In this document: piece after piece, positions 41,923 to 42,189 of the stretch | Layout: every line of letters begins with the position of its first letter | How positions within the stretch are numbered: the stretch's first letter is position 1 | Assembly: GCA_964016885.1 (NCBI GenBank) | Contig: OZ024750.1 | Span: 29,698,001-29,762,000, forward strand | Length of the DNA stretch: 64,000 nt | From: Eledone cirrhosa | Taxonomy: Eukaryota | Reading direction: 5' to 3' | The notes under the pieces: generated by a model | What the model was told of the DNA's origin: nothing | Seen by the model: only the letters and a program-made list of their open reading frames with translations | Databases searched by the model: none | Position numbers and translations under genes: made by a program

Positions 41923-41967
41923 TATATATATAATATAAGATCAAAAGATGGTTAAAAGAGTTCCATG

Positions 41968-42038
41968 TATTTTATTATGCGCATTTCAAAAACAAATATC
42001 ATCATGGGATGATAGTTGCGTTCTCATCAGATAAAATA
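41968..42038 (-). ncRNA. type I hammerhead ribozyme within a ~160-bp element (41938-42099) in (TA)n
   Basis: Minus strand: TATTTTAT-CTGATGA-[GAACGCAAC TATCATC CCAT GATGATA TTTGTTTTT]-GAAA-TGCGCA-TA-ATAAAATA. 8-bp perfect stem I, intact core, palindromic stem III. Confidence 0.85.
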
Positions 42039-42093
42039 GGGAGACATGATATGAAGCTTAAAAAACACTTGCGAGCAGTGAAATGTTAAATCA

Positions 42094-42189
<96 letters not shown>

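What the first reader, a model, noticed from the sequence alone, without database searches (positions are those of the whole stretch)
41938..42099. Second complete hammerhead with the same stem I but a different palindromic stem III and unrelated stem II
It shares TATTTTAT-CTGATGAG...GAAA-N6-TA-ATAAAATA with the 807 ribozyme. Here N6 is TGCGCA rather than TATATA (both palindromes), and stem II has a different sequence that still pairs. Structure is kept while sequence changes, which argues for selection on ribozyme function in the parent elements. It also sits between (TA)n tracts. The 3' strand of stem I overlaps an AATAAA hexamer in both copies, so the predicted cut falls at the start of a possible polyadenylation signal (inference).
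Basis: partly seen in the sequence, partly recalled or inferred. Interest (0 to 1): 0.7.

Follow-up and report, generated by a model that had tools for sequence, protein, structure and literature searches.

The report
Octopus jumping-gene dimeric hammerhead ribozyme remnant
This is a real hammerhead self-cutting RNA motif on a short piece of a very abundant repeat, likely the dead tail end of a Penelope-like jumping gene in an octopus-like animal, predicted to cut only when two copies pair up, which is an already described kind of element.

Summary
It is a type I hammerhead: 8-bp stem I, intact core, long stem II and a self-complementary helix III strand (AUGCGCAU). Two copies fold in silico into a double hammerhead; the monomer barely forms helix III.

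It sits in a 166-nt, 5'-truncated, TA-flanked piece of a high-copy family: 2,831 contigs laid in one run, and present under two other species labels. Of the listed paralogue variants, 10 of 10 in stems keep pairing, and the only listed change in the catalytic boxes is the free N7.

This matches the published dimer-type hammerheads at the 3' ends of Penelope-like elements (PLEs). The parent ORF was not found, so PLE membership is inferred. This solo copy is probably a fossil.

The AATAAA overlap is real and the cut would split the hexamer, but nothing shows use as a poly(A) signal. Verdict: new member of a known kind, low interest.

The parts
41933..42098 (-). 5'-truncated copy (3' end piece) of a high-copy repeat family carrying the hammerhead; likely a PLE 3' end / pseudo-LTR
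   Evidence: 2,831 contigs laid in X1, 3,455 reads in X24, 18 in X5, 5 in X7; other copies continue past 42098 with non-TA sequence and mostly end near 41933-41943 in TA-rich sequence
42031..42038 (-). Hammerhead stem I, 5' strand (UAUUUUAU)
   Evidence: one listed variant (42037) keeps a G-U pair
42024..42030 (-). Catalytic core C3-A9 (CUGAUGA)
   Evidence: only N7 (42026) is listed as variable among paralogues
41988..42023 (-). Stem II: 16 positions, 14 paired, 4-nt loop 42004-42007, G-U closing pair
   Evidence: 9 of 9 listed variants keep or restore pairing; 3 of 4 loop positions vary
41977..41987 (-). GAAA core plus self-complementary helix III strand A15.1-UGCGCA-U16.1
   Evidence: 8-bp self-duplex -10.5 kcal/mol; probability of the 15.1-16.1 pair in the monomer 0.001
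41975..41976 (-). Predicted cleavage site after A17 (UA); splits the AAUAAA at 41976-41971
   Evidence: hammerhead numbering applied to the sequence; cleavage not tested
41968..41975 (-). Stem I, 3' strand (AUAAAAUA)
   Evidence: no listed variant in 8 positions
41933..41967 (-). 3' tail; the element ends 43 nt downstream of the predicted cut
   Evidence: the family's highest depth is here; loose ends beyond are TA-rich, with no oligo(A) consensus among those shown
42099..42148 (.). (TA)n tract at the truncated 5' end (likely target site)
41922..41937 (.). Short imperfect TA run at the 3' end, next to a (GAT)n-ending SINE-like repeat
   Evidence: the SINE-like label is recalled, not tested
752..1008 (+). 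Second TA-flanked fragment with the sister hammerhead (stem I 810-817/868-875, core 818-824, N6 860-865); different family, same stem I
   Evidence: only a 16-nt exact match plus short GAAAT and ATAATAAAATA blocks are shared; paralogues not examined

Best explanation
This is a type I hammerhead motif with a palindromic helix III on a 5'-truncated, TA-flanked copy of a high-copy repeat, likely the 3' end of a Penelope-like retroelement (PLE), predicted to cut RNA only as a dimer and likely inactive at this solo locus. Mechanism: (1) Inferred: the parent element is transcribed as a tandem or partial-tandem RNA with two or more copies of the motif. (2) Computed: one copy cannot form helix III, but two copies form an 8-bp intermolecular helix III and swap stem I strands, giving a double hammerhead that would cut after UA. 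(3) Shown: genomic copies run 43 nt past the cut site. Inferred from this: reverse transcription started downstream of the ribozyme on uncut (or re-ligated) RNA, primed at a nicked (TA)n target, as shown in vitro for a lizard PLE. (4) Shown as a depth gradient and loose ends; inferred as cause: early termination leaves very many short 3' pieces, of which this is one. Selection acted in the parent elements, not on this copy.
For: Complete core and helices, 2 sites vs 0 in 150 shuffles. The unconstrained cofold gives exactly the double hammerhead, -34.7 kcal/mol, 10.9 below two monomers. High-copy family whose depth is highest at the 3' end and falls more than tenfold by 42090 in X1; other copies extend further 5'; two small opposite-strand joints of 3 and 5 reads, like inverted truncated PLE copies (PMC8557442 section 6). 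Pairing-compatible variation. Published PLE hammerheads are type I, have palindromic helix III, sit in pLTRs, are mostly solo truncated motifs and work as dimers (PMC4209133). One Drosophila willistoni PLE row reads as a 6-nt palindrome with a UA site and a non-G-C stem II closure (my parse of a PDF table). Hydra-clade PLEs target (TA)n and carry the hammerhead near the 3' end, including one from Octopus bimaculoides. Internal RT initiation downstream of the hammerhead on unprocessed RNA (PMC11167929). PLEs cover 6.83% of the O. vulgaris genome in 190 families. Host is octopod-like: best named hit of the window's LINE RT is Argonauta hians, 63%.
Against: No PLE RT or GIY-YIG sequence was found: 0 of 132 short ORFs and 0 of 15 longer ones; the only RT is an APE-type LINE 15 kb away. 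No genome is held, so the parent could not be walked to. No 13-letter or longer motif tried matched the Craig et al. PLE consensus files; two 10-letter motifs hit only inside unrelated coding-like sequence. Stem II closes with G-U here and often A-U in the family, not the usual G-C. 21 of 61 variant rows were not shown; variants are subfamily changes and not independent; each was scored against the window's partner base (41988 C would mismatch the common A allele at 42023). Depletion of variants in core plus N6 is p=0.06 with the RAD pile and p=0.011 without it. No cleavage assay.
Confidence: 0.72

Rival explanations
1. The fragment is a solo monomer of a non-autonomous non-LTR retrozyme or SINE-like element (a short unit that makes circular RNA and borrows PLE enzymes), not a piece of an autonomous PLE. 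The ribozyme chemistry would be the same dimer mechanism.
For: Very high copy number of a short non-coding piece. A 2-bp-plus-tetraloop helix III is described for invertebrate and axolotl retrozyme hammerheads (PMC7229834 passages). Solo retrozyme monomers are dispersed and are proposed to derive from PLE pLTRs (bioRxiv 10.64898/2026.07.22.740005). A shared downstream continuation appears in one X24 read pile and in two X5 contigs with different tail types, which could be the next unit of a tandem.
Against: No head-to-tail joint is listed within the 175 nt laid, and most shown 3' loose ends are low-agreement TA-rich sequence. No tandem repeat covers the motif. The depth gradient fits 5' truncation. 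The long stem II and absent loop 1 differ from canonical retrozyme hammerheads. The continuation also fits the optional PLE 'tail'.
Confidence: 0.18
2. Stem I is a regulatory switch: it hides the AAUAAA poly(A) signal, and cleavage destroys it, so the element controls read-through past its own 3' end. Ribozyme folding and polyadenylation would be mutually exclusive.
For: The same stem I and hexamer occur in two families that are otherwise unrelated. The cut falls inside the hexamer. No variant is listed in the 3' strand of stem I. Copies end 38 nt past the hexamer, beyond the usual 10-30 nt cleavage window (textbook knowledge), so the template RNA had not been polyadenylated there.
Against: The extra constraint on the A-run is not significant (p=0.16). 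AU-rich flanks are the published consensus, and none of the rows read in the published alignment puts AAUAAA at the cut (part 2 of 3). The hexamer is common in the window (103 sites). Only two families were compared.
Confidence: 0.1
3. This particular copy has been co-opted by the host and cuts a host transcript.
For: The core and palindrome are intact in this copy.
Against: It carries a rare stem II mismatch (42015) and G-U pairs where many paralogues have A-U. No partner is nearby: the other motif is 41 kb away, on the opposite strand and with a different palindrome (6 of 8 pairs; -17.5 vs -33.7 kcal/mol for the forced double hammerhead). No host exon was found nearby.
Confidence: 0.03
4. 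Chance match in AT-rich, repeat-rich DNA.
For: No Rfam hammerhead hit. AT-rich stems are easy to form; the fold z-score is only -1.8.
Against: 0 of 150 shuffles give such a site. Chance pattern matches lack the palindrome and stem II. Family variation follows the structure on one strand.
Confidence: 0.01

Closest known systems
Minimal / short-stem-III type I hammerheads of metazoan Penelope-like elements (Cervera and de la Pena 2014, PMC4209133; Lunse, Weinberg and Breaker, seen only as a citation and as summarised in PMC6765202)
   Same: Type I topology, CUGANGA and GAAA boxes, palindromic helix III needing a dimer, long stem II, U-rich and AU-rich flanks, many dispersed solo copies, several sequence families per genome.
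   Different: The palindromic insert is 6 nt (most listed rows have 2; some have 4, 6 or 8). Stem I is 8 bp (4-5 typical) and stem II about 14 bp (7-8 typical). Stem II closes G-U or A-U. No cephalopod row in the part of the alignment read, and 'Octopus' occurs 0 times in that file.
Hydra-clade PLEs, including Hydra-1_Obim (Craig et al. 2021, PMC8557442)
   Same: (TA)n target, hammerhead about 100 nt or less from the 3' end, octopus host, non-G-C closure of stem II in several rows.
   Different: Different sequence; Hydra helix III inserts are mostly 7-8 nt, often with a central unpaired base; no convincing motif match in the consensus files. Clade cannot be assigned without the ORF; Neptune elements also favour microsatellites.
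Poseidon PAc of Anolis carolinensis (Frangieh et al. 2024, PMC11167929)
   Same: Genomic copies end downstream of the hammerhead cut site; AT-rich target; optional tail.
   Different: In PAc the ORF starts at stem II; here ATGs within the unit give at most 17 codons. Distance from cut to end is 43 nt here and roughly 85-92 nt in PAc (computed from the paper's figures).
Non-LTR retrozymes (Cervera and de la Pena 2020, PMC7229834; Li et al. 2026 preprint)
   Same: Type I hammerhead with weak helix III in a non-coding, high-copy repeat.
   Different: No tandem array seen here; truncated and TA-flanked; circular RNA not tested.

Membership tests
Type I hammerhead ribozyme | Core C3UGANGA9, G12AAA15.1 and U16.1-H17 around three helices | tested here: met
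   helix III only in the dimer
Type I hammerhead ribozyme | G10.1-C11.1 pair closing stem II (usual, not universal) | tested here: not met
   G-U in this copy; 42023 is often A and 41988 sometimes C among paralogues. Published PLE motifs with A-U closure exist. Met in the sister motif at 825/855.
Type I hammerhead ribozyme | Self-cleavage at the predicted site | not testable with these tools
   needs an in vitro assay
Rfam hammerhead families | Score at or above gathering threshold | tested here: not met
   0 hits at gathering score; no hammerhead model among 18 and 4 weak hits at E up to 10
Dimer-type (short stem III) hammerheads of PLEs | Palindromic helix III strand, unstable as monomer, stable as dimer | tested here: met
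   (computed); palindrome kept among listed paralogue variants except one RAD pile
Penelope-like element | Telomerase-like RT plus GIY-YIG endonuclease ORF | tested here: inconclusive
   absent from the window; the copy is truncated and no genome is held
Penelope-like element | Hammerhead near the 3' end, 5' truncation, no poly(A) tail | tested here: met
   depth gradient and loose ends (16 rows shown, 110 not shown); cut 43 nt from the end
Penelope-like element | Partial tandem (pLTR), inverted truncated copies and optional 30-40 bp tail | tested here: inconclusive
   two small opposite-strand joints; a shared downstream continuation in one X24 pile and two X5 contigs
Hydra / Neptune / Naiad (TA)n-targeting PLE clades | Insertion into (TA)n | tested here: met
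   weak discriminator because TA runs are common in this genome
Naiad clade | Lack of a canonical hammerhead | tested here: not met
   complete motif present; Naiads lack canonical motifs
Non-LTR retrozyme | Head-to-tail tandem units each with a hammerhead | tested here: inconclusive
   none at this locus; no such joint within 175 nt; longer units cannot be excluded
Non-LTR retrozyme | Abundant circular RNA | not testable with these tools
   no RNA reads were laid

The most novel reading that the evidence does not exclude
Octopod PLE families share one stem I that hides, and on cleavage destroys, an AAUAAA poly(A) signal, while each family carries its own 6-nt palindrome as a pairing password. 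Dimer cleavage would then be family-specific (mixed dimer -17.5 vs homodimer -33.7 and -26.2 kcal/mol) and coupled to 3'-end choice. With tens of thousands of intact copies, transcripts from separate loci could also pair and cut each other in trans.
Probability: 0.1. Interest if true: 0.62.

Novelty: new member of a known kind. Interest (0 to 1): 0.27.

Why it matters
As the best reading stands, it adds an octopod family to a well-described class and shows that a large part of a cephalopod repeat family keeps a selected ribozyme fold. What PLE hammerheads do in vivo is still open: in the one PLE tested, cleavage was not needed for insertion in vitro (PMC11167929). A very high-copy family with a long palindrome and a sister family with a different palindrome is a convenient test set for dimer specificity. 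If the poly(A)-masking idea held, it would give these ribozymes a function, but there is no positive evidence for it yet.

Tried and rejected

Pattern scans: viral contigs 4 matches, metagenome contigs 86 matches, all judged chance and used as a negative control; prokaryote genomes 0 matches.

Rfam: no hammerhead; the weak snoRNA and miRNA hits are below threshold and rejected.

Pfam on 15 plus 132 ORFs: no PLE domain. No ORF longer than 17 codons starts in the unit. Two motifs from paralogue loose ends are absent from the window. The loose match at 40334 lacks stems and was dropped.

Sequencing runs: no RNA holder listed; this is not evidence either way. Reads could be laid only once, so the sister motif at 818 has no paralogue data.

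The N6 variant at 41982 (1,182 reads in X24, none in X1, X5 or X7) was set aside as likely restriction-site ascertainment: it turns CATT into AATT at the place where 1,141 reads end. Tests are given with and without it.

Naiad was my first guess for the parent and was rejected. Lunse et al. (PMC5785218) and Arkhipova et al. 2017 (PMC5850863) are not held; they may already list octopus motifs. One supplementary file of PMC4209133 could not be searched. Earlier-findings look-ups by sequence, place and words returned nothing except one shark report.

Full report
OBSERVATION. The motif is present as described, on the minus strand: stem I 42038-42031 with 41975-41968 (8 of 8 pairs), CUGAUGA 42030-42024, stem II 42023-41988 (14 of 16 pairs, 4-nt loop), GAAA 41987-41984, UGCGCA, then U16.1 and A17 at 41977-41976. 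The sister motif is on + with its core at 818. The two share 16 exact letters around the first core box plus short blocks at the second box and stem I; flanks and stem II do not align convincingly. A structural descriptor finds these 2 sites in 64 kb and 0 in 150 local shuffles (1 in 150 with a 5-bp stem I). The plain letter pattern gave 90 matches (59 distinct) in viral and metagenome contigs; 1 of 59 had a palindromic N6, about the 1 in 64 expected, and none lay near a (TA)6 tract. Rfam has no matching model.

SURROUNDINGS. The window is microsatellite- and satellite-rich animal DNA. It holds a broken APE-type LINE at about 56.9-62.1 kb whose best named protein hit is Argonauta hians at 63%, so the host is octopod-like. 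The motif lies in a 166-nt piece, 41933-42098, between a 27-unit TA tract and a short TA run. No PLE protein domain is in the window (0 of 147 ORFs scanned). No genome is held.

PARALOGUES. Laying four public runs on 41928-42102 at 80% likeness gave 2,831 contigs in X1 and 3,455 reads in X24 (same species label), 18 contigs in X5 and 5 in X7 (two other labels). Summed depth in X1 peaks near 2.4 million over the 3' tail, is 0.3-0.7 million over stem II and the first core box, and is about 27,000 at 42090-42095; the longest single pieces have depth 7-23. Depth is not a copy number, but tens of thousands of copies is a fair inference. Other copies continue past 42098 with non-TA sequence, so this copy is 5'-truncated. 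At the 3' end, most shown loose ends are TA-rich with low agreement and none is oligo(A); 16 loose-end rows were shown and 110 were not. One X24 pile and two X5 contigs share a further downstream continuation. No head-to-tail joint is listed; two small opposite-strand joints are (3 and 5 reads).

SELECTION ON STRUCTURE. 40 variant rows were shown and 21 were not. Of the 40, 10 fall in stems and 10 of 10 keep or restore pairing on the minus strand. The 6 transitions at Watson-Crick pairs all give G-U on the minus strand and would be mismatches on the plus strand (6 of 6, p=0.016 against 0.5; 9 of 9 transitions at any paired site, p=0.004). In the catalytic boxes only N7 varies. Three of 4 loop II places vary. 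The one N6 change (41982) is confined to a RAD pile of 1,182 reads and creates AATT exactly where 1,141 reads end, so it is likely selected by the restriction digest. Variant depletion in core plus N6 against unpaired regions is p=0.06 with that pile and p=0.011 without it. Caveats: variants are subfamily changes and not independent, haplotypes are not visible (41988 C would mismatch the common A allele at 42023), and the likeness filter favours conserved pieces. The window copy carries a rare C at 42015 that breaks a pair present in about 99% of depth, as expected for a decaying copy.

MECHANISM. Helix III cannot form in one copy (pair probability 0.001). A15.1 to U16.1 is self-complementary over 8 letters, and the unconstrained two-strand fold is exactly a double hammerhead with swapped stem I strands (-34.7 kcal/mol, 10.9 below two monomers). 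A forced mixed dimer with the sister motif pairs 6 of 8 and is much weaker (-17.5 vs -33.7 and -26.2); its unconstrained fold is not a double hammerhead. These are computations, not assays. Copies end 43 nt past the cut site, so the reverse-transcribed RNA was uncut or re-ligated there. Frangieh et al. (PMC11167929; parts 1-2 of 4 of the text read) show for a lizard PLE that reverse transcription starts internally downstream of the hammerhead on unprocessed RNA, that AT-rich DNA is nicked, that the ribozyme cuts only with the PLE protein, and that cleavage is not needed for insertion in vitro. I infer the same cycle for the parent here, with (TA)n targets. This locus has no compatible partner nearby and is probably inert.

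POLY(A) SIGNAL. AAUAAA begins at A17 in both motifs, so cleavage would split it and stem I would hide it. That geometry is real. But the published consensus for these motifs has U-rich and AU-rich flanks, the hexamer occurs 103 times in the window, and A-to-G changes are absent from the A-run at a non-significant level (0 of 6 vs 4 of 12, p=0.16). Lack of oligo(A) on the copies is uninformative if RT starts internally. A search for Penelope, hammerhead, 'polyadenylation signal' and pLTR listed 6 papers; only one review holds the poly(A) term, and I did not read those passages.

COMPARISON. Cervera and de la Pena 2014 (PMC4209133; parts 1-2 of 4 of the text; supplement searched and part 2 of 3 read) describe type I PLE hammerheads with palindromic helix III, dimer dependence, low activity and thousands of solo copies per genome; one D. 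willistoni PLE row reads as a 6-nt palindrome with a UA site (my parse of a PDF table with lost columns). Craig et al. 2021 (PMC8557442; passages, sections 6 and 11, supplement parts 1-2 of 59 and two motif searches) list (TA)n-targeting Hydra PLEs with 3' hammerheads, including one from O. bimaculoides with a different sequence, and state that Naiads lack canonical motifs. Bonar et al. 2026 (PMC13282606; parts 1-2 of 3 and a supplement search) give 190 PLE families covering 6.83% of O. vulgaris; 'hammerhead' is absent from its supplement. Retrozymes: PMC7229834 (passages) and a 2026 preprint (parts 1-2 of 5). PMC6765202 was seen as passages. Lunse et al. was seen only as a citation and through that review. 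Searches for 'Octopus' with hammerhead terms listed only Craig et al. as relevant, so this family seems not to be described in the held library, but Repbase, Dfam and the two unavailable papers were not seen.

VERDICT. It works like, and structurally is, a dimer-type type I hammerhead. Membership of its carrier among PLEs is likely (0.72) but not shown, because the ORF could not be reached; a non-autonomous PLE-derived retrozyme is the main rival (0.18). New member of a known kind; interest 0.27.

Noticed in passing
window 33275-33480 (+), 33523-33703 (+), 53033-53245 (-): Three related TA-flanked short elements: a near-perfect inverted repeat with arms of about 45-70 bp at one end, then a tail of about 75 nt with a shared block. 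No hammerhead core. MITE-like or Helentron-like (labels recalled, not tested).
   Followed up: partly
window 33720-34019 (+): TA-flanked fragment with CTGATGA and a short hairpin at about 33754 but no GAAA box: possibly a half or decayed hammerhead core.
   Followed up: no
window 56910-62132 (-): LINE with APE endonuclease, RT and zf-RVT domains in separate frames; best named relative Argonauta hians, 63%.
   Followed up: partly
window 10023-24463, 27887-32825, 34787-36587, 43215-46873: Very long GC-skewed tandem arrays (27-bp unit x536 at 95% match, 27/81-bp, 30-bp, 36-bp x102) with open frames of up to 4,912 codons; probably satellites, could be mucin-like exons.
   Followed up: no
window 960-1001: A 42-nt imperfect palindrome at the 3' end of the fragment that carries the first hammerhead; its cut site lies 141 nt from the fragment end, against 43 nt for the second.
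   Followed up: no
window 41660-41922 (+): SINE-like repeat ending in (GAT)n directly beside the hammerhead fragment; label recalled, not tested.
   Followed up: no
paralogues of window 41930-41943: Two tail types at the 3' end of the family, and a shared downstream continuation in one X24 read pile and two X5 contigs: candidate optional PLE tail or start of the next tandem unit.
   Followed up: partly
window 63444-63614 (-): One C2H2 zinc-finger match (E 4.4e-06) near the window end.
   Followed up: no
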